Shown here: positions 30,172-51,197 of the stretch, in pieces
Layout: each line of letters starts with the position of its first letter
Numbering within the stretch: the stretch's first letter is position 1
DNA from: a virus
Reading direction: 5' to 3' (one strand)
Length of the DNA stretch: 64,000 nt
IMG/VR virus record: IMGVR_UViG_3300025138_000014
Location: 1 to 64,000 of that record
The notes under the pieces: model-generated
What the model was told of the DNA's origin: nothing
Database searches by the model: none
The model's input: only the letters and a program-made list of their open reading frames with translations
Position numbers and translations under genes: made by a program

Positions 30172-30759
30172 ATGGTATCACTAACCAATCCAATAACTGC
30201 TCAAAATATAGTAAATAGATATGCTGATTATGTAGTTGCAACTTCAAACTCAGGCATTGTTTGGGGTACTAATTCAGTTCCGTTTAGTGATTTTTCTACA
30301 TCATATTTTGGTGGAACGACTGCTGGTCGGAGCATTGGAATTACTGGAGCCGATATAGACAACAATGTTAATAAAATTGATGCTTCCGAAATTAATGATG
30401 CTTTGGCAACAGAGACGGCAGCTTATAGTAACATACGTAAACTTAGGGCAATATTAAATTATACCGGTGTTGGTGACGGAGCAGGTGGCGCAGGTAACAC
30501 TGGAACTTGGCTCGGGACTCCAGGTGTTAACTTTGATCAGACTCAAGTTGCTTATCTGAATAACCAATATTTACAAACAATAAGTGCAACCACCAATTTA
30601 GGTGCAGGAGATATAATTGATGATTCTGTATTAGAAACTAAATTTGGCGCATTATCAACAGTCTATACAGCTGCTAGAAATAATACTCAGACAATTCAAA
30701 TTGATGTTTGTCACTCATCTTGTCACAGTAGTTGCCACGGATCAAGAGGACGCAGATAA
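30172..30759 (+). CDS. CHxS-repeat-tailed protein A (195 aa), putative radical SAM substrate/precursor
   Basis: Ends CHSSCHSSCHGSRGRR*; RBS GGAG; body is G/T/S/N-rich like a virion protein. Confidence 0.8.
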   Translation: MVSLTNPITAQNIVNRYADYVVATSNSGIVWGTNSVPFSDFSTSYFGGTTAGRSIGITGADIDNNVNKIDASEINDALATETAAYSNIRKLRAILNYTGVGDGAGGAGNTGTWLGTPGVNFDQTQVAYLNNQYLQTISATTNLGAGDIIDDSVLETKFGALSTVYTAARNNTQTIQIDVCHSSCHSSCHGSRGRR

Positions 30760-30762
30760 ATT

Positions 30763-31437
30763 ATGAACAATGTTGTTGAGACTACAGCACCAATTGATAT
30801 TAATGAATTAAAAAAGTTTTTTGAAAACAAAGACACATTTTATTTGATCAATTATGAGGAATCAGGACTCCAAGGCGTGAATCTATTAACGTATATGAGT
30901 AATCTTGATCTACCAGCTGATGTAGGATTTCAAACTCAAAAGGGTTTTGATGATCTTACTACAGCTTACTTACATGAGGAAGTAATATTAACTGTTCCTA
31001 TTTTGGAAATGAGAGTTATCGAACTTTTACTCCAAATGAAAGGTATGGTAGAGCCGAGAGAAAAAGATTTTATTGATGCGAATGTGGATATTCTAAAACT
31101 TTGGGCTAAAAAGTTGGATTCTCTTACACTCTTTAATATGTATTCTATTGGTCAAGAATCCTTTCACGATTATGTTAAATCTTATCCAATTGATAAAACT
31201 ATTTCAAATAAAGGTATAAATTTTGTATCTTTATTGAAGCATGAAAGATTTTTTATGTTTTATGGTAATATATATGAAGAACATAAAATATACTATGAAT
31301 CATACTTTAACGATTATATGTTCAAAGGTAACAATCTATTTCACTATTGGGCAAACGAAAATAATCCAATGTTTCTGTTAACGCAAGGGATTGCTTCAGG
31401 ATCACTACAGGAGAATCCAAATGTTCCATCTATTTAA
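30763..31437 (+). CDS. hypothetical protein (224 aa), paralog of 51198..51962
   Basis: Shared 'Y(M/L)(S/A)N', 'G.N...LL', 'F.G.(N/D)L(F/Y)' patterns. Confidence 0.75.
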   Translation: MNNVVETTAPIDINELKKFFENKDTFYLINYEESGLQGVNLLTYMSNLDLPADVGFQTQKGFDDLTTAYLHEEVILTVPILEMRVIELLLQMKGMVEPREKDFIDANVDILKLWAKKLDSLTLFNMYSIGQESFHDYVKSYPIDKTISNKGINFVSLLKHERFFMFYGNIYEEHKIYYESYFNDYMFKGNNLFHYWANENNPMFLLTQGIASGSLQENPNVPSI

Positions 31438-32569
31438 AAGAGTATATGTTGCTAGTGATGATATAATTGACTTTTCTATTAATAGAGTTGTTATATCTGA
31501 TATAAACGGTTTTCATGATGCAGGTTCTTCCGTTAATCAAATAGCATTTGCAAAAGACTGTTCAGATTTAATAGGTAGTGGTAAAGATAAACAGTTTAAA
31601 AGTTGGATTGATTTTTTTAGAACTATGTCTGATTTTACAGATACATTTAATAACGATAAAAAAGTGGTTATTTACTGTGATGATGATAATTTTATTAAAG
31701 TCATGTGTGCTTGGTATAAAATTATTTTTAAAGATCCTAGTGAAAAAACTTGTTTAAATTTATTAGAATCCAATGTGTTTAGATATAGAGTATTTGGTCA
31801 AGGCAGATGGGCTAAATCTTTTGCGGGAGATGCTAATAAATCATTCGACTTAAAGAACTTTAAAACTCATTGGGCAGCTAATAAAAAGCCGACCATTGCA
31901 TTGAGAAATAAATTTATTGAAGACTTCAAAGGCAGTCTTAATGTAGAACTATTGCTAGCAACATATCTTGCCAATGGAGAGATGAAAGTTGAACTGAAAA
32001 AAGCAGTAAAAACTATGCTATCTCTTGATTTGGAAAAATACCTATATGAACTAAAAGAATTATTCTTTACGCATATTATGACCAAAAAATATCACGCACG
32101 TTTACCAAAACCACTCAAAATGCAATTTGTATATCATTTCGGTAACTATGATACATCGCTTAATGATGACTCACCTATTGCAGAACTATTCTTATCTGAA
32201 CGTATATGGAACTCCAAGACCATGCGCAAACCCACTGCTGGTAAGAATATAAAATTCAATAATATCACTAGTGCTGATATCAAATTATTTAAACACTTTG
32301 ATAGTACATTCTTTAATACAGATACAGATAATCCAAAAATGATGAAGTCGGAATCATATAAACTAAACTGGATAGATGCTGTTAATGAAAATGAATTTTC
32401 AGACAAGCTGTTAAATAAGATTATTGAAAACGAATCATCATTTAATAATCTTCTAACCCCTGTGTTTTCCATGGAACAATCTACAGTAAATAATTATTTG
32501 GTAACAGCTTTATTTGAAGCACGAAATGATAATGATAAAGGTTTCTTAAAGAATTTTGCGATCATGTAA
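31421..32569 (+). CDS. hypothetical protein (about 382 aa)
   Basis: Likely start ATG 31421 (MFHLFKRVYV) after AGGAG RBS. Confidence 0.75.
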   Translation: MFHLFKRVYVASDDIIDFSINRVVISDINGFHDAGSSVNQIAFAKDCSDLIGSGKDKQFKSWIDFFRTMSDFTDTFNNDKKVVIYCDDDNFIKVMCAWYKIIFKDPSEKTCLNLLESNVFRYRVFGQGRWAKSFAGDANKSFDLKNFKTHWAANKKPTIALRNKFIEDFKGSLNVELLLATYLANGEMKVELKKAVKTMLSLDLEKYLYELKELFFTHIMTKKYHARLPKPLKMQFVYHFGNYDTSLNDDSPIAELFLSERIWNSKTMRKPTAGKNIKFNNITSADIKLFKHFDSTFFNTDTDNPKMMKSESYKLNWIDAVNENEFSDKLLNKIIENESSFNNLLTPVFSMEQSTVNNYLVTALFEARNDNDKGFLKNFAIM

Positions 32570-33589
32570 ATGTCTATATATGATCTATTAGAAAACAAAA
32601 TAACAACTTATGGTGAGATTGTTTGCTGCTTATTTGAGCACTGCAATCTAAAATGTGTTTTCTGCCCTCAAGATCATAATGATATACAAGGTGCTGACCG
32701 TGATGCTATTATGGCTAAAGTGCCACAGATTGTAGATTGGATTAATAATAATAGAAGAACTCAGGCTTATAAATTACATTTAATGGGCGGAGAACTCTTT
32801 CAAGATGAATGGATAGATAAAGGTTTCCTAGAAATATATCAGGACTTTATTGATTCTATTATAGCACAAACGGAAGCTGATGTCTACATAAATTTTATAA
32901 CTAATTTATGTTTTACTAAGTCAGATGTTGTAATGGAATTTTTAGAAGCAAATGATTTAACTATCTCTGTAAGTTATGATCCAGCTGGTAGATTTACTCC
33001 TAAAGCACATGAGATTTTTGTTTCTAATATTGAAACATATAAAGATAAGATTGAAATGATCTCGCTAGTTGCCACAAAACAGAATATAGCAAAAATTCAA
33101 CGTGGTGATAATTTATTTACATATCTTTACAATACATATCCTTGTGACTTTGACTCATTCTTACCTTCTGTAGATAACTCAAGAAAACTAATGCCTAGTG
33201 AAAGAACTCTTTTTGAGTTTAACAAATTGCTTGTATCTAAATATCCGAAATGTTTAAATGTTGATCATTTCGTTAATCAAAAAACACAGAATAAAATGAT
33301 TTGTACAAGAGGCAATTCTCTTACTGTAATGCCAGACGGATCTATTCCAACTGGTTGTTCTGGAGCAGTATTCTTAAAAGAAGCATCAACACCTGACCTG
33401 GCTGGTCCGGTGATCGTTGAAAAGTTTATGGCTAAATATAATTGCTTCGAGTGTAAATACTTTGCCCGATGCCCATTTAGCTGTTTCATTAAACAAGATT
33501 ATAAACACATTGAGCAAGATATGGACGAATGTGTATTTAAGGCGACATTCAAATATGCAGATAGCATTCATCAACCCACCGCATGCTGA
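32570..33589 (+). CDS. radical SAM/SPASM-like enzyme
   Basis: 'FEHCNLKCVFC', 'LMGGELFQD', C-terminal 'C..GC..CFECKYFARCPFSC..C'. Confidence 0.9.
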   Translation: MSIYDLLENKITTYGEIVCCLFEHCNLKCVFCPQDHNDIQGADRDAIMAKVPQIVDWINNNRRTQAYKLHLMGGELFQDEWIDKGFLEIYQDFIDSIIAQTEADVYINFITNLCFTKSDVVMEFLEANDLTISVSYDPAGRFTPKAHEIFVSNIETYKDKIEMISLVATKQNIAKIQRGDNLFTYLYNTYPCDFDSFLPSVDNSRKLMPSERTLFEFNKLLVSKYPKCLNVDHFVNQKTQNKMICTRGNSLTVMPDGSIPTGCSGAVFLKEASTPDLAGPVIVEKFMAKYNCFECKYFARCPFSCFIKQDYKHIEQDMDECVFKATFKYADSIHQPTAC

Positions 33590-35252
33590 TTGGTCATTAG
33601 CTAATAACTTCACATTTCTACTCATGCAAAGTTATTATAATCGCTTTGGTAAATATGCTGGGCAGATAGAATGGCTTGAATCTCCATATAAATGGAATAC
33701 CTATGAATCCTATGACGAAGTAACATCAGAGGTTATTAGTGCTGATGTAATTATGTTTTCATCTTATACATGGAACTATGTTATCTGTGATGAAATTTCG
33801 GCTAAAATTAAAAAAGAATATCCAAACAAAATATTAGTTTTAGGCGGTCCTCATATAGGTACAAATGAACCAGAACTATTAGCATCACGTCCGCAGTATG
33901 ATTTAATTTGTAGACCTACCAAACCAGGTGAGCCTTTTATGGCCGAGTTGATTGACCAGTTTATTGAAAAGAGAATTGATCCAACATATATCCCATGGGA
34001 GTTAAGGTCTGATATAGAAGTCATACACGATATAAGCAAAGAGGATTATTCAGTTTATGAAGATCACTTAGAATATATTACAAAGCTATTAGATTATTCA
34101 AGAGAACATAAGATGGAGCCTTTCATTGTTTTAGAGACAACAAGAGGTTGTCCTTACAAGTGTGTATTCTGTGAATGGGGTGGCGGTATCAATACAAAGA
34201 TTTATAAAAAGTCTGTAGATATTGTAAAGCGTGATATTAATGCTATGATAAAAGCTGGATATAGAGATGCTTATTTAACTGATGCAAATTTCGGAGCATT
34301 TCTAAAACGTGACTTTGAAATATTTGAATATGCTTGGGATAACAGTTTTAATTTAACAGATATATCCACTATGAAGTCAAAAGATTTACCAAGAAGAAAA
34401 GAGCTGATTGATAAGTGGTTTGAAATAGTAGATAAGCACGTTAAGGCGCCAGGTTCTACCGATGGTGAGGATATGTGGACTGAAACAGCTTTTGTTTCAT
34501 TAGTCCCAACTGTATCCATTCAAAGCAGTTCTGATACAGCCATGAAGTTAGCCGATCGTGTTGATTTAAATACTTATGATAAATTAAAATTAAGTGAATA
34601 TATTAATGAAAGATGTACTGAACACGGATATCCAATTCCAGCATTAGAGTTAATTCTTGCTATGCCCGGTTCTACAATAGATGACTTTTATTTTGAAATG
34701 GAATATATTTGGAACTTTAAAGCATTCGGTTCTTATCGGCACGACTATATGTTTTTGCCTGACTCAAGACTGAACTCTCCAGAATATAAGAAAAAACATA
34801 ATATTGAAACAGTAGAAGTATATTCAGATATTGTAGATGAACACGGCTCTGATAATTGGAACAGTTTATATAAAGACAAGAAATCATATTTTAGAACTAT
34901 CCTATCTTGTTTCTCTTTTACAAAAGAGGAGATGTATGAGATGTGGTTTATGAATAATGCGTGCAACTATATTCTACAGAAATTTTATCCACCTTTTGAG
35001 AAAAAAATGTCACCATCGGTATTTACAAAAGCAGTATATAATATTATAATAGAGTTAGACGAATGGATAGATATATATAATGAGATTAAAGATATTTACG
35101 ACCCAAATACTGCGCCTAAAAGTATTAGACAATTAGGTGGAAAATTTAGAACAGATTTTATAAATGATGTTCTGGAAAAAAATAGAATTATTATTATGTC
35201 GGAGGTTCATGGGGCATGTCAGGGAAGCAACTCACATTACAACTCACATTAA
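33555..35252 (+). CDS. cobalamin(B12)-binding radical SAM enzyme
   Basis: Likely start ATG 33555 (MQIAFINPP); B12-binding-like 'FSSYTWN...KIKKEYP...VLGGPH'; 'ETTRGCPYKCVFCEWG', 'DANFG', 'ELILAMPG'. Confidence 0.88.
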   Translation: MQIAFINPPHADWSLANNFTFLLMQSYYNRFGKYAGQIEWLESPYKWNTYESYDEVTSEVISADVIMFSSYTWNYVICDEISAKIKKEYPNKILVLGGPHIGTNEPELLASRPQYDLICRPTKPGEPFMAELIDQFIEKRIDPTYIPWELRSDIEVIHDISKEDYSVYEDHLEYITKLLDYSREHKMEPFIVLETTRGCPYKCVFCEWGGGINTKIYKKSVDIVKRDINAMIKAGYRDAYLTDANFGAFLKRDFEIFEYAWDNSFNLTDISTMKSKDLPRRKELIDKWFEIVDKHVKAPGSTDGEDMWTETAFVSLVPTVSIQSSSDTAMKLADRVDLNTYDKLKLSEYINERCTEHGYPIPALELILAMPGSTIDDFYFEMEYIWNFKAFGSYRHDYMFLPDSRLNSPEYKKKHNIETVEVYSDIVDEHGSDNWNSLYKDKKSYFRTILSCFSFTKEEMYEMWFMNNACNYILQKFYPPFEKKMSPSVFTKAVYNIIIELDEWIDIYNEIKDIYDPNTAPKSIRQLGGKFRTDFINDVLEKNRIIIMSEVHGACQGSNSHYNSH

Positions 35253-35764
35253 AAAAATGTTTAGATCAATTCGGATTTGCACAGCTATCTGAACCTGAAG
35301 GTCTTGGCGTGATAGATATTGATCAGTTTCAGTTAAGAAATACTGAAGAGCGAGCAAGAGATAATGGAGTTAATGATATACCACCATTTTTACAACTTCG
35401 CTTACACACATTCGGACACTTTTTATATGAAAAATATATTTTAAAAGATTGGCCGGATGCAGTTTTTAATAAGTATCTAATTTGGGACGGAGTGGATAAA
35501 GATAATCAAGGATGGCACACTGATATGTTTGAATCATATGACGTGTTTCTTTTATATTACTTAGATGACACATTTCCAGAAACTGGAGGCAGTATAAACT
35601 TTAAATGGAAAAATGAAGAAGGTATATCTGAAGAATTGTCTTTTCAACCAACAGCTGGAGACTTGTTTATGATTTCTAATAAAAGAGGTTTCTGGCACAA
35701 AGCTGGTCAGTCATCAATACAACGGAGGGTTTGTTCTTTTGACTTTAATACAAACGATAGTTGA
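35216..35764 (+). CDS. 2OG-Fe(II) oxygenase
   Basis: HxD 'WHTD', 'YYL.D....GG', distal 'WHKA', 'RRVCSF'. Confidence 0.78.
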   Translation: MSGKQLTLQLTLKKCLDQFGFAQLSEPEGLGVIDIDQFQLRNTEERARDNGVNDIPPFLQLRLHTFGHFLYEKYILKDWPDAVFNKYLIWDGVDKDNQGWHTDMFESYDVFLLYYLDDTFPETGGSINFKWKNEEGISEELSFQPTAGDLFMISNKRGFWHKAGQSSIQRRVCSFDFNTNDS

Positions 35765-36056
35765 CGAAAAAAATATTCTTTGTAAGGAAAGAGACTTGAC
35801 TGCAGAATTATATAATCTTTGGATTACTAAACTGCATGACTTTGAAGATATTCCAGAAAAATACGAACAGTATATGAAAATGATTGATAATCTTGAACCT
35901 TATGCAAATATGCTTAAAGAAGCCATAAGAGAAAAGAATAGTGAAATATGTAAACACTATGGAGTTAATTCTATTTCAGATACACCTCATTCAGTAGAAT
36001 GTATAAACAAATATGGTTATGATAGACCTAATGGAGCCGTACTGGAAAGAGGATGA
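35739..36056 (+). CDS. hypothetical protein (105 aa)
   Basis: Fills gap in tightly overlapping operon. Confidence 0.6.
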   Translation: MTLIQTIVDEKNILCKERDLTAELYNLWITKLHDFEDIPEKYEQYMKMIDNLEPYANMLKEAIREKNSEICKHYGVNSISDTPHSVECINKYGYDRPNGAVLERG

Positions 36057-36526
36057 TTGCTTTTGACACAGATCTGCTTGTAAATGGATATAAAGTTTTT
36101 GAGGATAAAAAAATACTCTTTACTTTAGGTAAAATACCTGATATAAAAGAATGGGAAGGAGATCAAGTAAAGTCTCCAAAAGGCTTTGATCTCCGACTAG
36201 CTCAAAATTATATTAACAATAAGTATGTTGCGCCAGTATTTGGTGGAGCAGTATTTGGTTATAGTAATATATGGAGTGGAACAGATAGCAATAGTAAAGA
36301 ATGGCACAATGATTTAATTGAAGGTTTTAATCTATTTTTTATGTATTACCTAAGTGATATAACAGAAGGCGGAGAGTTATGTTTCAGAGTTAATGGTAAA
36401 GAAACTGGTTCAATTCAGCCTAAGAAAGATATGCTGGTAATGGGATCTCAAGAAAGATACGTTGAGCATAAAGTGAACGACTGCAATCAGGAAAGAATAG
36501 TGTGTAACTTTGGATACAATATATAA
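36053..36526 (+). CDS. 2OG-Fe(II) oxygenase
   Basis: 'WHND', 'YYLSD..EGGEL', 'EHKV', 'RIVCNF'; paralogous to 35216. Confidence 0.78.
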   Translation: MIAFDTDLLVNGYKVFEDKKILFTLGKIPDIKEWEGDQVKSPKGFDLRLAQNYINNKYVAPVFGGAVFGYSNIWSGTDSNSKEWHNDLIEGFNLFFMYYLSDITEGGELCFRVNGKETGSIQPKKDMLVMGSQERYVEHKVNDCNQERIVCNFGYNI

Positions 36527-37190
36527 AATAGAAGAATATCTGCCTAAAATAGGTCCCTTTAGCATATACGCTCTATCTCATTTAATAACTCAAAGTGAAA
36601 AGTTTAATAATCACTTAGCTATGACTCAGCCAGATAATAAGTTTGAGTTAATGTATGCCAACTGGATAGCCACTGGTAATGAAAGTTTCATAGATTATTA
36701 TAAAGATATAGTTGCTCAAGCGTGCTTTGCTGAATTTCTTGAATGGTATGAGTACATAGCAAAGAACATACTACGAGATGATGTTCAAAGTGAACTTGGT
36801 ATTAAGTTTGACTATGATGCAATTAATTGGGAAAATGAAGTAAAAAAGTCCGAACTATTTGGATGGGCTTGGAGAACAACAGACTACAAACACTTTATGA
36901 ATAATTTGGATAAAGTCAGCAAAATCGGTGCTATGATGAACAACTTTTTTAATGATAGAAAACCGTTAAGCACTTTAGATGCAGATTACTTTGAATCAGA
37001 TCATGCTCAACTTGTACTCGACTCAATAGATAAAATTTTAATAAATAATGATAGACAAGAAATAATAGATCATTTAAATACAGAGAAAATTCTGTGTATG
37101 ATAGAAGTGTACGGTTGGGACAATCGGTTTAATAATATTCTATTGAAATGGATTTCAGACAATAGGAATAAAGTAAAACACTGGGCATGA
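36510..37190 (+). CDS. hypothetical protein (226 aa)
   Basis: ORF in operon; ATGA coupling with next gene. Confidence 0.7.
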   Translation: MDTIYKIEEYLPKIGPFSIYALSHLITQSEKFNNHLAMTQPDNKFELMYANWIATGNESFIDYYKDIVAQACFAEFLEWYEYIAKNILRDDVQSELGIKFDYDAINWENEVKKSELFGWAWRTTDYKHFMNNLDKVSKIGAMMNNFFNDRKPLSTLDADYFESDHAQLVLDSIDKILINNDRQEIIDHLNTEKILCMIEVYGWDNRFNNILLKWISDNRNKVKHWA

Positions 37191-38089
37191 TAATATCAAT
37201 AAACCCAACCTACTTTTGTAACTTTAGATGTGATTTCTGCTATCTATCTCCTAAACAATTGGGTGACCAGAAACAGATTTACCTTGAAAAACTAGATGAA
37301 TTATTAGCCCAAGTCCCAGATATAGAACACATTGACTTGTACGGCGGCGAAGTCGGCGCAATGAAAAAGTCCTATTTTTATGGCCTTAAAGAAGTCATTA
37401 GAAAATATTACTCTGGTACAATTAATATAAACACAAATTATTCTATGATGCATCCAGGCTTCTTTGACCCAGATGTTTATCTTTCTGTATCGTATGATTT
37501 TGAAGCAAGAGAAAAGTCTGAACTTGTCTTTAATAATATGATGATGGCTACAGCTCCAATGGCTGTTCTAGTCTTGGCTTCACCAACAGTATTAAAAAAA
37601 GATGTACTGGAGATGATAAGTTTACTAAATATGTGTAGTTCAGTCAGGTCTGTTGAAATTAAACCATATTCTACCAATCAAGCAAATGCTCATCCAGTAA
37701 CACATAAAGATTTTGAAGATCACGTTATTAAGTGGTTAGAGTATGAAGATGAAATGAAGTTCCAGTTTGTAAATGCAGATAGAATCATAGACTCATTGGA
37801 AGGCAACTATAATGCATTCTCTGACGATCATATTTATATTACACCAAATGGAAAATTCGGAGTATTAGAATTTGACAAAGAGGATAAAGAATACTTCCTA
37901 GAACTGGACAGTTGGGACGACTATATACTATGGACTCAAAAAGAAAAAACTGAAATGTCTCCTATCTGTACTTCTTGTAAGTATTTTGGTAAGTGCTTAA
38001 CAGAACATTATAGATATGTGAAAGACCTTACAAATAGTTGTAATGGATATAAAGGATTACTAGATTGGGCTGATTTAAATCTAAATTAG
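37187..38089 (+). CDS. radical SAM enzyme with reduced SPASM-like tail
   Basis: 'PTYFCNFRCDFCY', 'LYGGE', C-terminal 'CTSCKYFGKC...C'. Confidence 0.9.
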   Translation: MIISINPTYFCNFRCDFCYLSPKQLGDQKQIYLEKLDELLAQVPDIEHIDLYGGEVGAMKKSYFYGLKEVIRKYYSGTININTNYSMMHPGFFDPDVYLSVSYDFEAREKSELVFNNMMMATAPMAVLVLASPTVLKKDVLEMISLLNMCSSVRSVEIKPYSTNQANAHPVTHKDFEDHVIKWLEYEDEMKFQFVNADRIIDSLEGNYNAFSDDHIYITPNGKFGVLEFDKEDKEYFLELDSWDDYILWTQKEKTEMSPICTSCKYFGKCLTEHYRYVKDLTNSCNGYKGLLDWADLNLN

Positions 38090-38112
38090 TGTTATCTGAA
38101 GATTAGAACCAT

Positions 38113-38120
38113 TATAAATA
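38113..38120 (+). promoter_or_regulatory. T4 late promoter TATAAATA
   Basis: Exact consensus upstream of 38153 fibre operon. Confidence 0.75.
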
Positions 38121-38152
38121 AACTAAACCACTATAACATTGGATTTAGTTGA

Positions 38153-38506
38153 ATGGCACAATTCGAGCAATTAGAAATTGATCAGGGCACAGATGTCGCT
38201 GTTGAAATGCACCTGACAGATAAGGACGGTTCGGCAAAGAACCTTACTAATCATACAATAACAGCTAAACTTAAAAAGAATTACAGTTCTGATAGCGCAG
38301 ATACGACAAACTTTAATTGTATTGTTGTTTCTCCTGCTACATCAGGTATTGCTACAATCTCTTTAACAAACTCACAAACAAGTGCGCTTAGATCAGGCAA
38401 ATACGTGTATGACGTAGAAATGGCCTTTGTAGATAGCGACTCTAATACAATTATTGAAAGAGTGTTAGAAGGTCAAGCTATTGTAACACCGAGTGTGACA
38501 AGATGA
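38153..38506 (+). CDS. small Ig-like virion/fibre adaptor protein
   Basis: 'IDQG.D', 'NLT..T..AK.KK.Y', 'ISLT..QT..L..GKYVYDVE', 'RVLEG...VTP.VT'. Confidence 0.65.
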   Translation: MAQFEQLEIDQGTDVAVEMHLTDKDGSAKNLTNHTITAKLKKNYSSDSADTTNFNCIVVSPATSGIATISLTNSQTSALRSGKYVYDVEMAFVDSDSNTIIERVLEGQAIVTPSVTR

Positions 38507-38736
38507 GTTTTTCAATAAAACTTAGTGGCGGAACAACGCAAGTAAAAAAAGTTGTTGTCGGAACTCCAGTCAGAAAAGTAACATCAGGTTCTTTTTCTGT
38601 TAACAATATTGCTGGGATTAATCTCTCAGTAGGAGAGAAAATTGAAGGTTCTCTATTAGTATTTGATTCAGCGAGTGGGAATTTTATTCCTGCACAGACC
38701 CTCACAAACACTAATATAACAGGAGAGTCCTACTAA
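38503..38736 (+). CDS. small structural hypothetical protein (77 aa)
   Basis: Coupled ORF; 'GSLLVFD...G.F' fibre-like motif. Confidence 0.65.
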   Translation: MSFSIKLSGGTTQVKKVVVGTPVRKVTSGSFSVNNIAGINLSVGEKIEGSLLVFDSASGNFIPAQTLTNTNITGESY

Positions 38737-40781: not shown

Positions 40782-40824
40782 ACTAGATTTATTAATCTGG
40801 TTAATACTTTTTTAAGGACGAATT

Positions 40825-43062: not shown

Positions 43063-43065
43063 AAA

Positions 43066-46014
43066 ATGGGAAAAAAACTAATACGTGATTATGTGTACGC
43101 ACCAGGTAATGCGGGAGCAGGAACAGTTCAGATACCTGGAACTTACAGTATGGACCAGATACTAATCATTACCAACGTAACAGATAATGTTGTAATCTAC
43201 AATTTTGCTTCAACTGAACATGCAGGTACAACTGTTACAGTAACAAATGCAAATACAGCCGCAGATGGGCATTGGGCCCATATAATGGAAATAGCAAATG
43301 GTTTTACTACTATCACTCTTGCTAAAAGTACAGCAGGGCAATCCGCTTCTGATGCTCTTCAAATATTTGTAGAGGACTCAGAAGGTGATATGGTTGTCAG
43401 ACCGTATAACTTTGGTACAGATGCTATTGAACGAATGCGTGTATCTCTTCCAGAGTCAATGATTGACGCAGACTTTGAGTACGGATTGCAGCCTACTAAA
43501 TGGGCTGGTTATGGTACTATTAAAGGTTACCCTTCTGTTTATTCTACCGAAGGCGTTGATCTTGATACTACAGCAGTTACAACTGATTATAATACAGGAT
43601 CATCCACAAACTCATTAATCACAGTTACATTTGGATCAGCTCATGGTTTATCTGTTAATGATGTTGTTAATGTAACTGGCTTAGATTCTGGGGTCCCAGG
43701 TTTCTCAAGAGCAGATGGTTCATTTCTAGTCGAGACAGTTGTTAGCAGTACAGTAATTAAATACTTTGCACGTGGTATTGTTGGCAGCAGTAATAATCAA
43801 TCATTATATACAGAAGAAACTTTAACAAAACTCGGAGGCATTTATGCAGGCGCATCTATCCCAGTTCAAAGTGCATCTTCAAACGGTGCTAACCCTAGTG
43901 TAATTACACTAACTTTTGCTAATCCACACGGACTTATCCCTGGTACAAATATTCATACATCAGTTGCGTCTGGTACTAACAAAGAGGAAGCCTCAGGGCC
44001 TTTCTTTATTAAATCGGTACCAACAGAGACAACATTTACATATACTGCACGAGGGGGTGCAGTAGTCGGCAGTCCAGCAACTGTTACACTCTTTGCTCTT
44101 TCTAATGCTACAATTCTTCACAGACCTGCTGATGGCGGAGTTATTCTACAAACAAAAACACCAACATATGCAGCTTCGGTTGTTCGTGTTAGTAAACGAT
44201 ATTTCAGGTATCAGTCTGGTAAGGGATTCCTATTCTCAACTGGTACATTAATGAAACCTAACTATGATATTAGAAGCATTTCAGCTGCTGGTACAGGCGT
44301 AGGACAATTAATTACTATCGGTACAGATGAGATTGATCACGGTCTACAACCCGGTGCTAAAGTTAGATTAGAAGGAATTGAAACTTCTGGATATGAAAAT
44401 ACTTATACGGTAAATTCTATTATAGATGATTACACATATACAGTTGCTGCTCTTGGAACTTTAGGATCTACAAACCCGGTACTCAAAAGAGTATGTACAA
44501 TGTATGTTACTGAGTGGCGTGGAGCAGCTGTTCGTGCAGGTATGTTTGATGATGTTAACGGAATTTTCTATGAGTTTGACGGAAAACAATTCTATGTTTG
44601 TAAAAGAAATTCAACTCAACAGATTTCTGGTACATTAGGAGTTACTGCTAACGGAAGTGCAGTTACAGGAGCCAATACTAGACTTACTGAACAATGTAAA
44701 GCTGGAGATAGAATTTCAATTCGTGGTATGATTCACTTCATTACTAAAGTTGCTTCAGATACTTCAATGTTTGTTACACCAGATTATCGTGGTATCACAG
44801 CCAGCGGTATCAAGGGAAGTATTGTTATTGACCACAAAGTTCCTCAATCACGCTGGAACATTGATAGAATGGATGGAACAGGTATTCACAATCCATCATT
44901 GCACACCCTTGATCTTAATAAAATGCAAATGGTTGGATTCCAATATTCATGGTATGGTGCTGGTTTCATTGACTTTATGATCCGTGGTCACGATGGCAAT
45001 TGGTGTTACATTCATAGAATGAAAAATAACAACATTAATAATGAAGCATTTATGAGGTCTGGTAACCTTCCAGTGAGATACTCTATTGAGAATGACTCAC
45101 CTGTTTCAAACCTAACTGCTTCGATTAACTCATCAGTCACGACTATTCCAATTGCAGAAATTAATGAGTTTGATGATACTGGTATTATTATGGTAGACAA
45201 CGAGATTATCTCATACACTGGAAGATCTGCTACAACTGGTCCAGCTAACTTTACAGGTTGTACAAGATCAGCTACTCTGACTCAATATCAACAAGGTAGT
45301 ACAAATAATCTTACTGCCGGAGCTGCAGCAAGTCACACAAATAAAACAGGTGTTATTGAGATTTCAAATACTTGTTCTCCAACACTATCACACTGGGGAT
45401 CTGCCCTAGTTATTGATGGAGACTTTGACTTTGATCGTGGTTATATCTTTAATTACTCAAACTCACATAACACTAATTCAGACCAGATTGTTACAACTCC
45501 AATTACATCGTTTGTAATTAGACTTGCGCCTTCGGTATCTAACTCATCAGTGGGTAGACTTGGAGCCAAGGACCTTCTCAATAGATCGCAGTTACTTCTT
45601 AAAGAATGTGCTGTTGTGTGTGGGCGTGGTTCATCATCATCCGGTGAGGTTCATATTCAAGGTATTATTAATCCTAAGAACTTCTCAGATGCTACATGGA
45701 AAGGTCTATCAGGATCTGCAGAAGGTGGTCAACCTAGTTTTGCTGAAGTTGCTAATAAAAATGATATTACATGGAGTAGTGGTTCATATGCGCAACCAGG
45801 AGAAAGAGTTTTCTCATTCGTTGCTGGTACAAGTAGACAAGACTCAGTTGTTACTACTGCTGATATTGATCAGCTTAAAGAATTATCAGGTGCTCCTCTA
45901 GGAGGAGATTATCAGTTCCCAGATGGGCCAGATGTTCTAGCAGTTAATGCATTCTGTTTATCAGGTGATGTTAAAGCGTCTATCCAGCTTCGCTGGTCTG
46001 AAGCACAAGCATAA
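43066..46014 (+). CDS. large virion structural protein (982 aa)
   Basis: 'RMRVS.PESMIDADFEYGLQPTKW', repeated 'IT.T....HGL..G' beta units, 'RYFRYQSGKG', 'YSWYGAG'. Confidence 0.75.
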   Translation: MGKKLIRDYVYAPGNAGAGTVQIPGTYSMDQILIITNVTDNVVIYNFASTEHAGTTVTVTNANTAADGHWAHIMEIANGFTTITLAKSTAGQSASDALQIFVEDSEGDMVVRPYNFGTDAIERMRVSLPESMIDADFEYGLQPTKWAGYGTIKGYPSVYSTEGVDLDTTAVTTDYNTGSSTNSLITVTFGSAHGLSVNDVVNVTGLDSGVPGFSRADGSFLVETVVSSTVIKYFARGIVGSSNNQSLYTEETLTKLGGIYAGASIPVQSASSNGANPSVITLTFANPHGLIPGTNIHTSVASGTNKEEASGPFFIKSVPTETTFTYTARGGAVVGSPATVTLFALSNATILHRPADGGVILQTKTPTYAASVVRVSKRYFRYQSGKGFLFSTGTLMKPNYDIRSISAAGTGVGQLITIGTDEIDHGLQPGAKVRLEGIETSGYENTYTVNSIIDDYTYTVAALGTLGSTNPVLKRVCTMYVTEWRGAAVRAGMFDDVNGIFYEFDGKQFYVCKRNSTQQISGTLGVTANGSAVTGANTRLTEQCKAGDRISIRGMIHFITKVASDTSMFVTPDYRGITASGIKGSIVIDHKVPQSRWNIDRMDGTGIHNPSLHTLDLNKMQMVGFQYSWYGAGFIDFMIRGHDGNWCYIHRMKNNNINNEAFMRSGNLPVRYSIENDSPVSNLTASINSSVTTIPIAEINEFDDTGIIMVDNEIISYTGRSATTGPANFTGCTRSATLTQYQQGSTNNLTAGAAASHTNKTGVIEISNTCSPTLSHWGSALVIDGDFDFDRGYIFNYSNSHNTNSDQIVTTPITSFVIRLAPSVSNSSVGRLGAKDLLNRSQLLLKECAVVCGRGSSSSGEVHIQGIINPKNFSDATWKGLSGSAEGGQPSFAEVANKNDITWSSGSYAQPGERVFSFVAGTSRQDSVVTTADIDQLKELSGAPLGGDYQFPDGPDVLAVNAFCLSGDVKASIQLRWSEAQA

Positions 46015-46026
46015 GAAAGAAAAGAA

Positions 46027-48123
46027 ATGGTAACTAAACTCAGTACACATCTAAATACAAGCCTAGGTAATGTTGTACAAGGTGTAGACTCAGAAGATGT
46101 AATTACACTAATCGGCACCACAAAAGTAGCTGTTGACTCAGGTACTATTGGTAACTTTATTGCAACCATTTCACCAACTTCACCAAACCCTGGCATTGTT
46201 ATTACAGGATCTGGTTCAAACAGTGCAGCGGCTTTTCTAAGGTTAGATTCAGCCGTTGCAGTAACGAAAACTGGTACACAAACATTAACAAATAAAACAA
46301 TTAACCTTACTGCTAATACTTTGACTGGAACTGCAGCTCAATTTAATGCAGCTATGAGTAATGGTTCATTTGCTACTATCGGTGGAACAGAAACTTTAAC
46401 AGATAAAACTTTAACAAGTCCAGTAATTAACTCTGCAACAATTAATAATGGTACAGCAAATAATCTAGCAACACTTAGTTTAAGAGATGCTACAACTAAT
46501 ACTAAAAAACTTATAGTAACATCCAATGCCGCAAGCCCAGTTTTATCGGCTGATAGAACACTAACACTTGATGTTAACAATGCAGATAGAACATTATCAC
46601 TAATGGGTAATGTTACATTAGGCGGAGCATTAACTACATCAGGCGCTCACGCAACAACATTTACTACAGGCGGAACAACCGCACTTACTTTGCCAACATC
46701 TGGTACAGTTGTTACAAAAGATTCAGCTGGTGGAACAATCTCAGCTAACTATTTTATTGGTAATGGTGCACAGTTAACAGGTGTTGCTTCAGGCGATATC
46801 GTAGCTGATACTACTCCACAATTAGGAGGAGATTTAGATGCAAACGGAAACAATATTCTATTAGACAATGCTACAAAAATTAGTTTTGGTTCAGACACAC
46901 TTCAAGTAAAAACTGATGGAAGTAGTAATAGTATTATTCAAGGTTCCAGTACAACATACCTCAGAGGCAGTAGTGTTAATATCGGATCAAATGGCGGCAG
47001 TGGAGGATATCCAAATACAATACTTGTAACTGGAAACACAAGTACAAGTCACGTTGAAATGCTTTATGGCACAAGTAAAAAGTTTGAAACAACCAGTACA
47101 GGTGTTACAGTAACAGGTAATATAACTGTATCTGGTACAGTTGATGGTGTAGATGTTCTAACAATTGGTAATAAAGTAAATGGTATTGAAGCATCAGCTG
47201 ATGTTACAGATGCTACTAATGTTGGAACATCTCTTACAGCATTTAGCACATCAACAGATGATGCGCCAGGAGATTTAATTCCAGTCTATGATGTTTCAGC
47301 TAGTGCTTGGAAAAAGATGACTATTGCTAATGCGGCTCTTGGTGGAGCCCAAGGTAACAAAGGTCAAAAAGGTGAAGTAGGTGGAGACGGTGGAGCGGGT
47401 AGTAAAGGACAAAAAGGTGAAGTCGGCGGAGACGGTGGAGCGGGTAGTAAAGGCCAAAAAGGCGAAGTAGGTGGCACAGGTGGAGCAGGTGGAGCGGGTA
47501 GTAAAGGACAAAAAGGTGAAGTAGGAACATTTGGTGGCGGAAACATCACAATAACCAACCAAGCAATTTTATCTAATGCGTCATCTAACTGGACAGGTGA
47601 TCCAGGCACCCAAGGTAAAATTCAGTACCACTCAAATAGATGGTATATTGTTTCAGACCAATCTTCAGACAGAATTGTTCAGTTTAGAAGAAATGGAACA
47701 GATGTGTCATATGTAGATAACTCAGGTGTGTATCAGGGTACAGCAACGTCAGCAAATTGGTCTGACTTAGCGGAGAAATATAAAGCAGATGCAGTTTATG
47801 AAGCAGGTGATTTAGTAGGTATCGGCGGAGCTGAAGAGATTACTAAATACACTAAAGATATGCCATTTGCTGGAGTTATATCGGAAAAACCTGGCGTGAG
47901 AATGAATTGCAATGAAGAAAATATGGATGATCCACTATGGCCATATGTTTGTTTAAAAGGTCGTGTTCCAGTTAAGATTAATGGAACAGCAATTAAAGGC
48001 GATTATATTATTACAGACGATAATGGAAAAGCAAAGTCTAGCAAAGTTAAGCCAGATGATTTAAGTCTGCTTATCGGCATTGCTCTTGAAGATGGGACAG
48101 ACGAGGTAGAGGTTAAAATTTAA
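46027..48123 (+). CDS. tail fibre with collagen-like tract and C-terminal chaperone/autocleavage-like domain
   Basis: 'TLTNKT' repeats, 'DTTPQLGGDLD', Gly-X-Y tract, C-terminal 'WSDLAEKY...CLKGRVPV.....KGD...IGIALE'. Confidence 0.82.
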   Translation: MVTKLSTHLNTSLGNVVQGVDSEDVITLIGTTKVAVDSGTIGNFIATISPTSPNPGIVITGSGSNSAAAFLRLDSAVAVTKTGTQTLTNKTINLTANTLTGTAAQFNAAMSNGSFATIGGTETLTDKTLTSPVINSATINNGTANNLATLSLRDATTNTKKLIVTSNAASPVLSADRTLTLDVNNADRTLSLMGNVTLGGALTTSGAHATTFTTGGTTALTLPTSGTVVTKDSAGGTISANYFIGNGAQLTGVASGDIVADTTPQLGGDLDANGNNILLDNATKISFGSDTLQVKTDGSSNSIIQGSSTTYLRGSSVNIGSNGGSGGYPNTILVTGNTSTSHVEMLYGTSKKFETTSTGVTVTGNITVSGTVDGVDVLTIGNKVNGIEASADVTDATNVGTSLTAFSTSTDDAPGDLIPVYDVSASAWKKMTIANAALGGAQGNKGQKGEVGGDGGAGSKGQKGEVGGDGGAGSKGQKGEVGGTGGAGGAGSKGQKGEVGTFGGGNITITNQAILSNASSNWTGDPGTQGKIQYHSNRWYIVSDQSSDRIVQFRRNGTDVSYVDNSGVYQGTATSANWSDLAEKYKADAVYEAGDLVGIGGAEEITKYTKDMPFAGVISEKPGVRMNCNEENMDDPLWPYVCLKGRVPVKINGTAIKGDYIITDDNGKAKSSKVKPDDLSLLIGIALEDGTDEVEVKI
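47344..47541 (+). repeat. collagen-like Gly-X-Y tract, about 22 triplets, built from imperfect 45-bp tandem units
   Basis: GAQ GNK GQK GEV GGD GGA GSK GQK GEV GGD GGA GSK GQK GEV GGT GGA GGA GSK GQK GEV GTF GGG. Confidence 0.92.
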
Positions 48124-48510
48124 ATGCCCGATTATAATACACTAGATGCTTCACTACAAGCAAAAGCGGGTGGGGCACTGAGAACTTTTGATAAAACTAT
48201 GACTTTTACTGTAACTGCATATGTATTACAATCAGTTACTACTACTCAAGCAGGCCCTACAAGCACACTTGGCGTTACTCAAAGATTTGAATTTACAGGT
48301 GCTGCCGATTCACTTTACGACGATTATCTTGACTCTGGTATTTACACTGGGGCACGTATATATTCTCAAGATGTTATTGACTCAATTTCTAATACAATAC
48401 AAAGAACTGTAGATCAGATAGAAAGTCGAATCACTGATAGATCAATCTCAGCTTTAATTTGCCACAATAGTTGTCATACTAGCTGCCATACTTCAAGAGG
48501 GCGCAGATAA
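48124..48510 (+). CDS. CHxS-repeat-tailed protein B1 (128 aa), putative radical SAM substrate/precursor
   Basis: Ends CHNSCHTSCHTSRGRR*; starts immediately after fibre stop (TAAATG). Confidence 0.85.
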   Translation: MPDYNTLDASLQAKAGGALRTFDKTMTFTVTAYVLQSVTTTQAGPTSTLGVTQRFEFTGAADSLYDDYLDSGIYTGARIYSQDVIDSISNTIQRTVDQIESRITDRSISALICHNSCHTSCHTSRGRR

Positions 48511-48896
48511 TGGGAAATATGACGAGAGACAGTGTCGACTCTTATATCCAAACTTATTCTGGAGCGAAGTTAAGAACATTTGACAAAACTATTACTATAA
48601 CAACTACAGCATATCAGAATAACAATCCCACTGCTATGGGTGGAACAGGTACTAATACTACGACACATAGGTTTGAATATACAGGTGCTGCCGATTCACT
48701 ATTCGATAACTATATTGATGGAGGTATCGCAGTGGGCCAAAGAGTTTATGCGCAAGATATTGTAGACACTTTAGAGGATGCAGTACAAAGAACAGTTGAT
48801 TTGATTGAAAGTCGAATTGATAACAGATCTATCAGCGCAGCGTTATGTCACAGTAGTTGTCATACAAGCTGTCACACATCGAGAGGAAGACGCTAA
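48510..48896 (+). CDS. CHxS-repeat-tailed protein B2 (128 aa), tandem paralog of B1
   Basis: Ends CHSSCHTSCHTSRGRR*; shares 'LRTFDKT', 'RFE.TGAADSL.D.Y.D.GI', 'QRTVD.IESRI..RSISA' with B1. Confidence 0.85.
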   Translation: MGNMTRDSVDSYIQTYSGAKLRTFDKTITITTTAYQNNNPTAMGGTGTNTTTHRFEYTGAADSLFDNYIDGGIAVGQRVYAQDIVDTLEDAVQRTVDLIESRIDNRSISAALCHSSCHTSCHTSRGRR

Positions 48897-51183: not shown

Positions 51184-51197
51184 GATTATAATATATC

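What the first reader, a model, noticed from the sequence alone, without database searches (positions are those of the whole stretch)
30709..48896. Invariant C-terminal core motif (C-H-x-S)3-R-G-R-R-stop in three otherwise divergent proteins
Seen: 30709-30759 CHSS CHSS CHGS RGRR*, 48460-48510 CHNS CHTS CHTS RGRR*, 48846-48896 CHSS CHTS CHTS RGRR*. Codons differ synonymously (TGT/TGC, TCT/TCA/AGT/AGC), so selection acts on the protein. The 195-aa body shows little similarity to the 128-aa bodies. Established: His-X-Ser is a substrate triad for radical SAM three-residue cyclophane (triceptide) formation, and spaced Cys residues are thioether donors in ranthi/sactipeptides. Inference: this is a hybrid core with three HxS units and three Cys at i+4 spacing plus a basic RGRR recognition or cleavage tag. 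Alternatively it is a Cys3His3 metal site.
Basis: partly seen in the sequence, partly recalled or inferred. Interest (0 to 1): 0.9.

Follow-up and report, generated by a model that had tools for sequence, protein, structure and literature searches.

The report
Enzyme-matured Cys-His tail on phage fibre proteins
Three small proteins of a marine T4-like phage end in the same Cys-His-x-Ser tail, which always travels with its own radical SAM enzyme beside tail-fibre genes; a counterpart in a cultured phage is a virion protein, so the tail is probably an undescribed enzyme-made modification of the phage's host-gripping apparatus.

Summary
Three ORFs (195, 128 and 128 aa) end in (C-H-x-S)3-R-G-R-R-stop at the stated coordinates: 3 matches against 0.01 expected by chance. 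Two corrections apply. The two 128-aa proteins are 58% identical paralogues. All three share a C-terminal module of about 56 residues, not only 16.

Family-wide the rule is (C-H-x-[S, rarely N/A])3-R-x-R-R at the extreme C-terminus, almost always three repeats. A profile search found 650 clusters at 50% identity, with bodies of 59-541 aa.

The tail always travels with radical SAM genes:
- 37 of 37 well-flanked viral loci and 18 of 18 genome loci have one nearby.
- The 195-aa type sits between a SPASM radical SAM gene (rSAM_A) and an unknown gene (C224).
- The twin 128-aa genes follow a collagen-like fibre gene.
- They pair with a separate sublineage of the same enzyme (W in this window), a clade with 100% support.

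A counterpart that shares the tail module and the synteny, Atu_ph07 gp170, is a virion protein that runs far above its mass on SDS-PAGE. Its neighbouring enzymes are not in the particle.

Best reading (about 0.6): the tail is the modification site of a dedicated radical SAM maturase on a fibre-associated virion protein, not a released peptide. The chemistry is unknown. A metal-binding tail is not excluded.

This scan has noted the same motif on other genomes. I found no paper describing it.

The parts
27355..29097 (+). Fibre protein TF580, immediately upstream of module 1. Its C-terminal ~150 aa are 35% identical to those of fibre TF698.
   Evidence: PHROG tail-fibre families; BLASTP against TF698
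29116..30135 (+). rSAM_A, a SPASM-type radical SAM enzyme and the proposed maturase of the 195-aa carrier.
   Evidence: CxxxCxxC at residue 13. Invariant C13/17/20 plus C244, C247, C263, C302-x2-C305-x5-C311-x3-C315 and C325. TIGR04085 SPASM domain above its cut-off. Directly upstream of the tailed gene in 66 of 71 loci.
30172..30759 (+). 195-aa carrier (T195): acidic body, shared C-terminal module, tail at 30709-30759.
30763..31437 (+). C224, the constant downstream partner of the 195-aa type. No Cys, fold not recognised.
   Evidence: Downstream neighbour in 71 of 74 loci; phrog_20767; AF2 pTM 0.82 with no fold match
31391..32569 (+). D392, a conserved cassette gene of unknown function (start codon uncertain).
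   Evidence: Homologues in 42 of 120 loci; no family match
32570..33589 (+). rSAM_E, a second radical SAM enzyme of phrog_1802.
   Evidence: present in 60 of 120 loci
33555..35252 (+). B12-binding radical SAM enzyme (KedN5-like C-methyltransferase class). The likely start is the ATG at 33555.
35216..35764 (+). 2OG-Fe(II) oxygenase-like protein.
   Evidence: below Pfam cut-off
36053..36526 (+). 2OG-Fe(II) oxygenase.
   Evidence: 29.5 bits, cut-off 27
37187..38089 (+). rSAM_K, a radical SAM enzyme.
   Evidence: in 39 of 120 loci
46027..48123 (+). Fibre TF698 with collagen-like repeats. Its stop codon is immediately followed by the start of the first 128-aa carrier.
   Evidence: PHROG tail-fibre families; tandem repeats at 47351-47525; upstream neighbour of the 128a type in 29 of 31 loci; junction TAA|ATG
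48124..48510 (+). 128-aa carrier a (T128a), tail at 48460-48510.
48510..48896 (+). 128-aa carrier b (T128b), tail at 48846-48896. Its start overlaps the stop of carrier a (TAATG).
48896..50080 (+). M407, a divergent radical SAM-like protein (CxxxCxGC) whose start overlaps the stop of carrier b. First of five paralogues.
   Evidence: downstream neighbour of the 128b type in 27 of 39 cases
51943..56241 (+). Four more M407-family radical SAM-like paralogues: 51943-52965, 52877-54115, 54105-55241 and 55213-56241.
   Evidence: CxxxCxxC motifs; pairwise 23-31% identity; phrog_31457
56199..57323 (-). U, a radical SAM paralogue of rSAM_E (29% identity).
57714..58769 (-). V, a radical SAM enzyme distantly like rSAM_K.
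58760..59791 (-). W, a full-length paralogue of rSAM_A (44% identity). It belongs to the clade found only with the twin 128-aa carriers and is their proposed maturase.
59727..60206 (-). Cupin-domain protein directly upstream of W, as in the cupin → rSAM_A → tail order of RSL2-group phages and pPa_SNUABM_DT01.

Best explanation
The motif is the end of a conserved C-terminal module of about 56-70 residues: a helix, a short strand-like stretch, then (C-H-x-S)3-R-x-R-R-COOH. This module is attached to different acidic, Cys-free bodies. In this marine T4-like myovirus it occurs in two fibre-linked gene modules. Module 1 is fibre TF580 → SPASM radical SAM enzyme A → 195-aa carrier → C224 → further radical SAM, B12-radical SAM and 2OG oxygenase genes. 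Module 2 is collagen-like fibre TF698 → twin 128-aa carriers → five M407-type radical SAM paralogues, followed on the opposite strand by cupin → W (a paralogue of A) → V → U. I propose that the flexible tail is the site at which the A-type SPASM enzyme (A for the 195-aa carrier, W for the twins) abstracts hydrogen and installs a modification. That modification is most likely one or more cross-links involving the three Cys and/or His-x-Ser units, possibly tailored further by the other enzymes. The matured carrier is then built into the virion at or near the fibres, while the enzymes stay in the cell. Shown: the motif, its conservation, the synteny, the pairing of enzyme lineage with carrier class, and the virion location of a counterpart. 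Inferred: that the tail is the substrate, the kind of chemistry, and the fibre location.
For: (1) Conservation far above the body. 113 of 120 relatives of the 128-aa protein selected on the body keep the canonical tail at 45-99% body identity. 147 of 148 divergent representatives found with a module profile have exactly three CH-x-x repeats at the extreme C-terminus. All synonymous codon families are used. (2) The Cys residues are almost entirely in the tail: 0.04-0.14 Cys per body. (3) Obligate linkage to radical SAM genes. rSAM_A is directly upstream in 66 of 71 loci and C224 directly downstream in 71 of 74 loci. 37 of 37 viral loci with at least 3 kb on both flanks, and 18 of 18 genome loci, hold radical SAM genes. 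The one apparent exception, L074, has an A-type enzyme elsewhere on its contig. The same order holds in cultured phages of four host genera: RSL2 group, Atu_ph07 and pPa_SNUABM_DT01. (4) Enzyme lineage matches carrier class. The window has two carrier classes and two A-type enzymes, A and W, 44% identical. Contigs with only the twin class have exactly one A-type enzyme, 11-12 kb away and convergent in three of four, as W is. All 8 enzymes from twin-carrier loci form one clade (SH-aLRT 100), apart from the enzymes lying next to 195-type genes, where A falls in another 100%-supported clade. (5) rSAM_A has the radical SAM cluster motif and a complete SPASM Cys set. Its nearest solved relatives are protein and peptide maturases: anSME and CteB. 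(6) The tail is predicted to be poorly ordered (pLDDT 52-60) on a folded body, as expected for an enzyme-accessible end. (7) Atu_ph07 gp170 shares the C-terminal 73 residues with the 195-aa family (hhalign 98.7%) and the same flanking genes. It was found in purified virions with 8 unique peptides and 35% coverage. Its neighbours gp171, gp169, gp168 and gp165 are not in that list (PMC6102473 Table S5; numbering checked by mass). Its signal peaks in the top gel fragment, whereas other ~30 kDa proteins peak in fragment 8. (8) The carrier genes sit directly behind fibre genes that share a C-terminal domain, and are translationally coupled to them.
Against: There is no chemical evidence: no mass shift, thiol count or structure for any member. 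No enzyme here reaches the cut-off of a characterised maturase family, so the reaction type cannot be read from homology. Position 4 tolerates Asn, Ala, Gln and Asp, so Ser is not strictly required. The virion evidence comes from a distant counterpart that shares only the C-terminal module and the synteny. Its high gel position could reflect disulfides, because the published loading buffer lists no reducing agent. It could also reflect an SDS-stable oligomer: annotated fibre proteins in the same table also run high. The tree is a quick search with SH-aLRT support only, and related phages share labels, so the clade pattern is not many independent events. Twelve radical SAM genes are far more than three tails would seem to need, so other substrates probably exist.
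Confidence: 0.6

Rival explanations
1. The tail is a metal-binding end (three Cys plus three His). It would hold Fe, Zn or Cu, perhaps shared between chains of an oligomeric fibre, as the His-x-His iron sites do in some phage fibres and spikes (my recollection of T4 gp37, not tested here). The radical SAM genes would act on other substrates, or would only need to be co-expressed.
For: Cys and His are the most invariant positions, and Cys is confined to the tail. The repeat number is fixed at three. The genes lie in a fibre context. An SDS-stable high-mass form of gp170 would also fit a metal- or disulfide-bridged oligomer.
Against: Metal binding does not explain why Ser at position 4 (91%) and the R-x-R-R ending are conserved. 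It also does not explain why a dedicated enzyme lineage tracks each carrier class, or why rSAM_A and C224 flank the gene so rigidly. Gly is common at x in the third repeat, which argues against a regular helix presenting a ligand ladder.
Confidence: 0.2
2. The tail is an attachment handle rather than an internal knot. The enzymes would join it covalently to another virion protein, for example the fibre with the shared C-terminal domain, so that the carrier is riveted to the fibre.
For: Carrier genes sit directly behind fibre genes with a shared C-terminal domain and are translationally coupled to them. Atu_ph07 gp170 (31.9 kDa) peaks in the top gel fragment.
Against: The gel may have been non-reducing. 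Fibre proteins in the same table also run above their mass, so stable non-covalent trimers would be enough. No acceptor residue or partner has been identified.
Confidence: 0.1
3. These are classical RiPP precursors. The body would act as a long leader, and the 16-residue tail would be modified, cut off and released as a small bioactive peptide.
For: The genes resemble a RiPP cluster: several radical SAM/SPASM enzymes, a B12-radical SAM enzyme, oxygenases and a Cys-rich C-terminal 'core'.
Against: The body folds with confidence. The counterpart's body is found in virions at 35% coverage. I found no protease or exporter among the cassette genes scanned. rSAM_A has no N-terminal leader-recognition domain, because its cluster motif starts at residue 13. 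The genes lie inside the structural region, coupled to fibre genes.
Confidence: 0.05

Closest known systems
HXS antiphage system (HxsA matured by radical SAM enzymes HxsB/HxsC with HxsD; PMC13128918)
   Same: A folded protein, not a short peptide, carries His-x-Ser repeats rich in basic residues and is matured by dedicated radical SAM enzymes. A modification (+8 Da) maps to an S-H-R-S-S unit in the last repeat. A small accessory protein of no known family takes part.
   Different: HXS is a bacterial defence with a periplasmic, peptidoglycan-binding effector. Here the system is phage-encoded, lies in the fibre region, and every repeat begins with Cys. The motif is at the extreme C-terminus and ends R-x-R-R. 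The window's enzymes score 17-26 bits against HxsB and HxsC, whose cut-offs are 370 and 268.
Anaerobic sulfatase-maturating enzyme (anSME, PDB 4K36-4K39) acting on sulfatases
   Same: A SPASM radical SAM enzyme without a leader-recognition domain that modifies a Cys or Ser in a short motif of a folded protein. It is among the best solved matches to the rSAM_A profile (E 5e-7) and the third-best NCBIfam hit over the full length. The last repeat, C-H-[G/S/T]-S-R, loosely resembles C-x-[P/A]-x-R (the sulfatase motif is from my own knowledge).
   Different: The score is 39 bits against a cut-off of 349. The carriers are not sulfatases (no Pfam hit). There are three repeats, and only the last is followed by Arg.
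Ranthipeptide and sactipeptide maturation (PapB, CteB)
   Same: SPASM enzymes that make thioether links from regularly spaced Cys. PapB is the best NCBIfam hit to rSAM_A (1.1e-10, full length), and CteB (5WGG) is among the best solved matches.
   Different: The score is 41 bits against a cut-off of 340. There is no N-terminal recognition domain on the enzyme. There is no acidic acceptor residue in the tail. The substrate is a 128-541-aa protein that stays whole.
Triceptide (three-residue cyclophane) maturases: XyeB, GrrM, FxsB, HxsB
   Different: All matches are 17-27 bits against cut-offs of 310-450 and cover only the radical SAM cluster region. The invariant Cys in every repeat is not part of any described triceptide motif.

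Membership tests
SPASM-domain radical SAM superfamily (for rSAM_A, 29116-30135) | CxxxCxxC radical SAM cluster motif near the N-terminus | tested here: met
   C13-x3-C17-x2-C20, invariant in 27 orthologues
SPASM-domain radical SAM superfamily (for rSAM_A, 29116-30135) | C-terminal SPASM Cys set (Cx2Cx5Cx3C with flanking Cys) for auxiliary clusters | tested here: met
   TIGR04085 scores 28.3 bits against a cut-off of 27. Invariant C244, C247, C263, C302, C305, C311, C315 and C325.
HXS system (HxsA/B/C/D) | Maturases are HxsB (TIGR03978) and HxsC (TIGR03977) equivalogs | tested here: not met
   Best scores are 26.4 bits (cut-off 370) and 18.3 bits (cut-off 268)
HXS system (HxsA/B/C/D) | Substrate is HxsA-like: peptidoglycan-binding domain, N-terminal processing, His-x-Ser repeats without Cys | tested here: not met
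   No Pfam or NCBIfam domain in any of the three carriers. The repeats are C-H-x-S and lie at the C-terminus. HxsA features are taken from PMC13128918.
Triceptide / three-residue cyclophane RiPPs | Maturase belongs to a cyclophane-forming family (XyeB, GrrM/OscB, FxsB, YhhB, AmcB) | tested here: not met
   16.7-26.9 bits against cut-offs of 310-450, matching only the first ~80 residues
Triceptide / three-residue cyclophane RiPPs | Aromatic-x-x unit in the substrate | tested here: met
   His-x-Ser three times. This is permissive, not diagnostic.
Triceptide / three-residue cyclophane RiPPs | C-C bond between the ring and the beta carbon of the third residue | not testable with these tools
   Needs mass spectrometry or NMR of the matured protein
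Ranthipeptides / sactipeptides | Maturase is a PapB- or CteB-type equivalog with an N-terminal recognition domain | tested here: not met
   PapB scores 41.3 bits against a cut-off of 340. The cluster motif starts at residue 13, leaving no room for an N-terminal domain.
Ranthipeptides / sactipeptides | Thioether between Cys sulfur and a carbon of an acceptor residue | not testable with these tools
   Needs thiol counting and MS/MS
Anaerobic sulfatase maturase system | Enzyme is a TIGR03942 equivalog | tested here: not met
   38.9 bits against a cut-off of 349. The profile against PDB gives anSME at E 5e-7, with the best stretch covering only ~75 residues.
Anaerobic sulfatase maturase system | Substrate is a sulfatase with C/S-x-P/A-x-R | tested here: not met
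   No sulfatase domain. Only the last repeat is followed by Arg, and it has G, S or T where P or A is expected.
CXXX-repeat peptide system (TIGR04115 maturase) | Maturase reaches the TIGR04115 cut-off | tested here: not met
   35.5 bits against a cut-off of 350, matching residues 8-66 only
phrog_35144 (RSL2 ORF068 family, function unknown) | Match to the family profile | tested here: met
   All three carriers match only its C-terminal end, E 3e-8 to 2e-7. The family's own members end in the same tail.

The most novel reading that the evidence does not exclude
Radical SAM enzymes install covalent cross-links in, or from, the Cys-His tail, giving an enzyme-made 'rivet' that locks small carrier proteins into the tail-fibre apparatus. 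Large phages of many hosts and predatory Bdellovibrionota would share this device as a common way to harden or arm the structure that grips a prey cell.
Probability: 0.25. Interest if true: 0.9.

Novelty: new variant of a known kind. Interest (0 to 1): 0.78.

Why it matters
Radical SAM/SPASM enzymes are known for making peptide natural products and for maturing a few enzymes. In the papers I could search, they are not reported to finish structural proteins of virus particles. If this reading is right, many large phages (650 clusters at 50% identity) spend 5-12 Fe-S enzyme genes on chemically modifying small fibre-linked proteins. That would be a new layer of virion maturation and probably of host recognition or particle stability. 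The motif is short, terminal and nearly fixed, and cultured phages that carry it exist (Atu_ph07, RSL2, RSF1, FLC6, SURPRISE13, pPa_SNUABM_DT01). The chemistry is therefore directly testable and could yield a new radical SAM reaction or a compact protein-ligation tag. Its presence on chromosomal contigs of Bdellovibrionota hints at a shared tool among agents that attack bacterial envelopes.

Tried and rejected
- Complex prediction of rSAM_A with residues 125-195 of the 195-aa carrier, with three 4Fe-4S clusters and SAM riding along, gave no verdict (score 0.07, mark 0.32). It says nothing either way.
- Fold of the 128-aa carrier (pLDDT 78): no PDB match by Foldseek with E ≤ 0.001.
- Fold of C224 (pTM 0.82): no Foldseek match. 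The best wide structural alignment is Z 4.8 over 54 residues of a small beta-alpha-beta subdomain. A weak profile hit to a GST-like chain (E 0.035) was not borne out. These blanks do not show that the folds are new.
- ESM Atlas gave nothing usable for C224, and only unnamed viral clusters for the 195-aa carrier.
- Pfam and NCBIfam found nothing for the carriers, C224, D392 or N368, and nothing meaningful for most M407-type paralogues.
- A megablast of 21 kb of the window against cultured phages found no near relative.
- I looked for a second virion proteome. The RP12/RP31 paper has a radical SAM cluster, but I could not link it to a tailed protein. The RSL2/RSF1 proteome paper is not in the library. 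The DT01 and SURPRISE13 papers report no proteomics.
- Literature searches combining phage, radical SAM or SPASM, virion, fibre and RiPP found no description of this system.
- L074 first looked like a counter-example, a tail with 8.5 kb of flank and no radical SAM gene. I rejected that after finding a 2596-aa fibre filling the flank and an A-type enzyme elsewhere on the contig.
- I considered that the bacterial hits were mis-binned phage contigs. I rejected that for two Bdellovibrionota contigs, which carry several separate ABC ATPase genes. It remains open for the others.

Full report
**1. The observation**

Translating the three stated stretches gives CHSSCHSSCHGSRGRR*, CHNSCHTSCHTSRGRR* and CHSSCHTSCHTSRGRR*. 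They close ORFs 30172-30759 (195 aa), 48124-48510 (128 aa) and 48510-48896 (128 aa). The window belongs to a 151-kb IMG/VR virus record that holds only these three copies. A degenerate pattern for the repeats, allowing two mismatches, finds 3 sites against 0.01 expected from shuffles.

The copies differ by synonymous codons, including switches between the TCN and AGY serine families and between AGA and CGC for arginine. In 127 distinct DNA versions from other phages, every fixed residue uses all of its codons.

**2. Corrections to the observation**

- The two 128-aa proteins are 58% identical paralogues.
- The 195-aa protein aligns with them by BLASTP over only the last 28 residues. Profiles of the two families align over the last 56 columns with 98.7% probability.
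- The conserved unit is therefore a C-terminal module (helix, a short strand-like stretch, then the tail) on different bodies.
- The bodies are acidic (pI 4.2-4.5) and almost free of Cys.

**3. How invariant is the tail?**

My first viral scan forced the motif, so I tested conservation on relatives chosen in other ways.

| Set | How chosen | Result |
|---|---|---|
| 128-aa family | body similarity, identity down to 45% | 113 of 120 canonical; 6 of the other 7 differ at one position or by one missing repeat |
| 195-aa family | body similarity | 85 of 120 canonical; the rest mostly RSRR for RGRR, or Asn/Ala for Ser at position 4 |
| Module profile against 1.84 billion representatives | 66-position profile | 650 clusters at E ≤ 0.001, 211 at E ≤ 1e-10, lengths 59-541 aa |

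Of the 148 listed sequences from the profile search, 147 have exactly three CH-x-x repeats at the extreme C-terminus. Position 4 is Ser in 91%. The ending is R-x-R-R, with x = G in 82% and S or I in most of the rest. The working rule is (C-H-x-[S, rarely N/A])3-R-x-R-R-COOH.

**4. Gene context in the window**

The phage is a marine T4-like myovirus. A 982-aa structural protein is 45% identical to that of Synechococcus phage S-CAM1. Twelve genes between 29116 and 59791 carry a CxxxCxxC motif. They fall into these groups:

- A (29116) and its 44% identical paralogue W (58760, minus strand).
- E (32570) and its paralogue U (56199, minus strand; 29% identity).
- K (37187), distantly like V (57714, minus strand).
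- One B12-binding enzyme (33555).
- Five mutually 23-31% identical M407-type proteins (48896-56241).

Two 2OG oxygenase-like genes and a cupin gene complete the set. rSAM_A conserves the radical SAM cluster motif and a complete SPASM cysteine set. Its best solved relatives are anSME and CteB, both weak matches. No enzyme approaches the cut-off of any named maturase family.

The carriers sit in two modules, each behind a fibre gene:

- TF580 → A → 195-aa carrier → C224.
- TF698 → 128a → 128b → M407. The junctions here are TAA|ATG and two TAATG overlaps, which indicates coupled translation.

The two fibres share a C-terminal domain of about 150 residues at 35% identity.

**5. Context elsewhere**

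In these loci:

- The 195-aa type has rSAM_A directly upstream in 66 of 71 cases and C224 directly downstream in 71 of 74 cases, not counting contig ends.
- The 128a type follows a TF698-like fibre in 29 of 31 cases.
- The 128b type is followed by M407 in 27 of 39 cases.
- All 37 loci with at least 3 kb on both flanks contain a radical SAM gene.
- The single apparent exception has a 2596-aa fibre filling the flank and an A-type enzyme elsewhere on its contig.

Cultured jumbo phages show the same order:

- The RSL2 group, including RSF1, FLC6, FLC8 and SURPRISE13: cupin → rSAM_A orthologue → 186-aa protein ending VCHSSCHTSCHGSRGRR (shown for RSL2 and SURPRISE13).
- Atu_ph07: gp171 → gp170, ending CHSSCHASCHNSRSRR.
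- pPa_SNUABM_DT01: gene 66 → gene 65, ending CHTSCHTSCHSARGRR.

Among 185,579 species genomes the pattern occurs 18 times, all in MAGs and all next to the same enzymes. About half are Bdellovibrionota. Two of those contigs also carry several ABC ATPase genes, so they are chromosomal.

**6. Enzyme lineage follows carrier class**

The window has two carrier classes and two A-type enzymes. Four contigs that hold only the twin class have exactly one A-type enzyme each. In three of them it lies 11-12 kb away and convergent, as W does in the window. In a tree of 69 A-type enzymes, the eight from twin-carrier loci, including W, form one clade (SH-aLRT 100). The window's A falls in another fully supported clade, among enzymes lying 10-38 nt from 195-type genes.

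This is what an enzyme-substrate pair would give. Two caveats apply. The tree is a quick search, and relatedness among phages means few independent events.

**7. Where the protein ends up**

Atu_ph07 gp170 shares the last 73 residues with the 195-aa family (98.7%) and has the same neighbours. In the published virion proteome it has 8 unique peptides and 35% coverage. The flanking enzymes gp171, gp168 and gp165, and the C224-like gp169, are not listed (PMC6102473 Table S5). I confirmed the numbering by mass: gp170 31.89 kDa, gp176 66.07, gp177 21.66.

Gel fragment numbers track mass. By my reading of the table, gp170 is the only protein of 25-40 kDa with at least 3 peptides that peaks above fragment 4; it peaks in fragment 1, the top. 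This fits a covalent adduct or a very stable oligomer. However, the loading buffer lists no reducing agent, and annotated fibre proteins in the table also run high. It is a pointer, not proof.

**8. Interpretation**

The most economical reading has four parts:

- The flexible tail (pLDDT 52-60 on a folded body) is the site modified by the A-type SPASM enzyme.
- Other cassette enzymes may tailor it further.
- The matured carrier becomes part of the virion at or near the fibres.
- The enzymes stay in the cell.

I put this at about 0.6. The chemistry (thioether, His-x-Ser cyclophane, formylglycine-like oxidation, or something new) cannot be decided here.

The rivals are:

- A metal-binding Cys/His end (0.2).
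- An intermolecular rivet to the fibre (0.1). This is a sub-case that would be the most novel.
- A released RiPP (0.05).

**9. Comparison with known systems**

The closest described system in logic is the bacterial HXS defence. There, radical SAM enzymes mature a protein with His-x-Ser repeats, and a +8 Da change maps to an S-H-R-S-S unit (PMC13128918). Membership fails on enzyme scores, substrate architecture and context. anSME, ranthipeptide and triceptide systems resemble it in single respects and fail their family cut-offs.

I therefore file rSAM_A only in the SPASM radical SAM superfamily, and treat the whole as a new variant of radical SAM protein maturation.

**10. Status**

Earlier notes of this scan describe the same motif on other genomes and on this one. 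I re-tested their main claims here: widespread occurrence, Bdellovibrionota, the virion counterpart, and the twelve enzymes. I add the pairing of enzyme clade with carrier class, the tail rule from unbiased sets, the coupling to fibres that share a C-terminal domain, and the gel anomaly. I found no paper that describes the system.

Noticed in passing
window 60844-62781 (+): A 645-aa protein combines a GT25 glycosyltransferase domain, a PLOD-type glycosyltransferase domain (E 1.5e-44) and a C-terminal 2OG oxygenase domain. That is an animal-style collagen lysine hydroxylation and glycosylation kit in one chain. It lies about 13 kb from fibre TF698, which carries collagen-like repeats.
   Followed up: partly
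window 47351-47525 (+), inside TF698: There are 3.5 tandem copies of a 45-nt unit encoding a Gly-rich, collagen-like KGQKGEVGGDGGAGS repeat. It is a possible substrate for the PLOD-like enzyme.
   Followed up: no
window 59727-60206 (-) and 60263-60847 (+): A cupin/JmjC-like protein lies directly upstream of W, and a separate 2OG-FeII_Oxy_5 protein lies on the other strand. The cupin → A-type enzyme order recurs in RSL2-group phages and DT01.
   Followed up: partly
window 22100-27130 (+): A 1676-aa protein with DUF4815 (E 7e-49) and phrog_358 lies upstream of fibre TF580. It is probably a large structural protein.
   Followed up: no
L074:1650-10015 (-): In another viral contig, a 2596-aa fibre with the TF698-type C-terminal domain is followed, with overlapping stop and start, by a 191-aa tailed carrier and then a 365-aa C224-like protein. 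This is the tightest fibre-carrier coupling I saw.
   Followed up: partly
L130, L131, L133-L137, L139, L141; G001:C4:197015-197065 and G002:C7:256392-256442: Tailed carriers with the same enzyme set occur in Bdellovibrionota MAGs, with rearranged gene order. Two contigs also carry several ABC ATPase genes, so they are chromosomal. I did not determine whether they lie in prophages or in a bacterial apparatus.
   Followed up: partly
L124:9044-9934 (Atu_ph07 gp170): In the published virion gel, this 31.9-kDa tailed protein is spread over fragments 1-9 and peaks in the top fragment. Annotated tail-fibre proteins gp288, gp327 and gp472 also peak above their masses.
   Followed up: partly
P0073, P0349, P0368, P0386 (relatives): Rare tail variants exist: a two-repeat form, an insertion inside the third repeat (CHAPSCH), and forms with an extra Gly before the R-x-R-R ending. 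They could serve as natural probes of what the enzyme tolerates.
   Followed up: no
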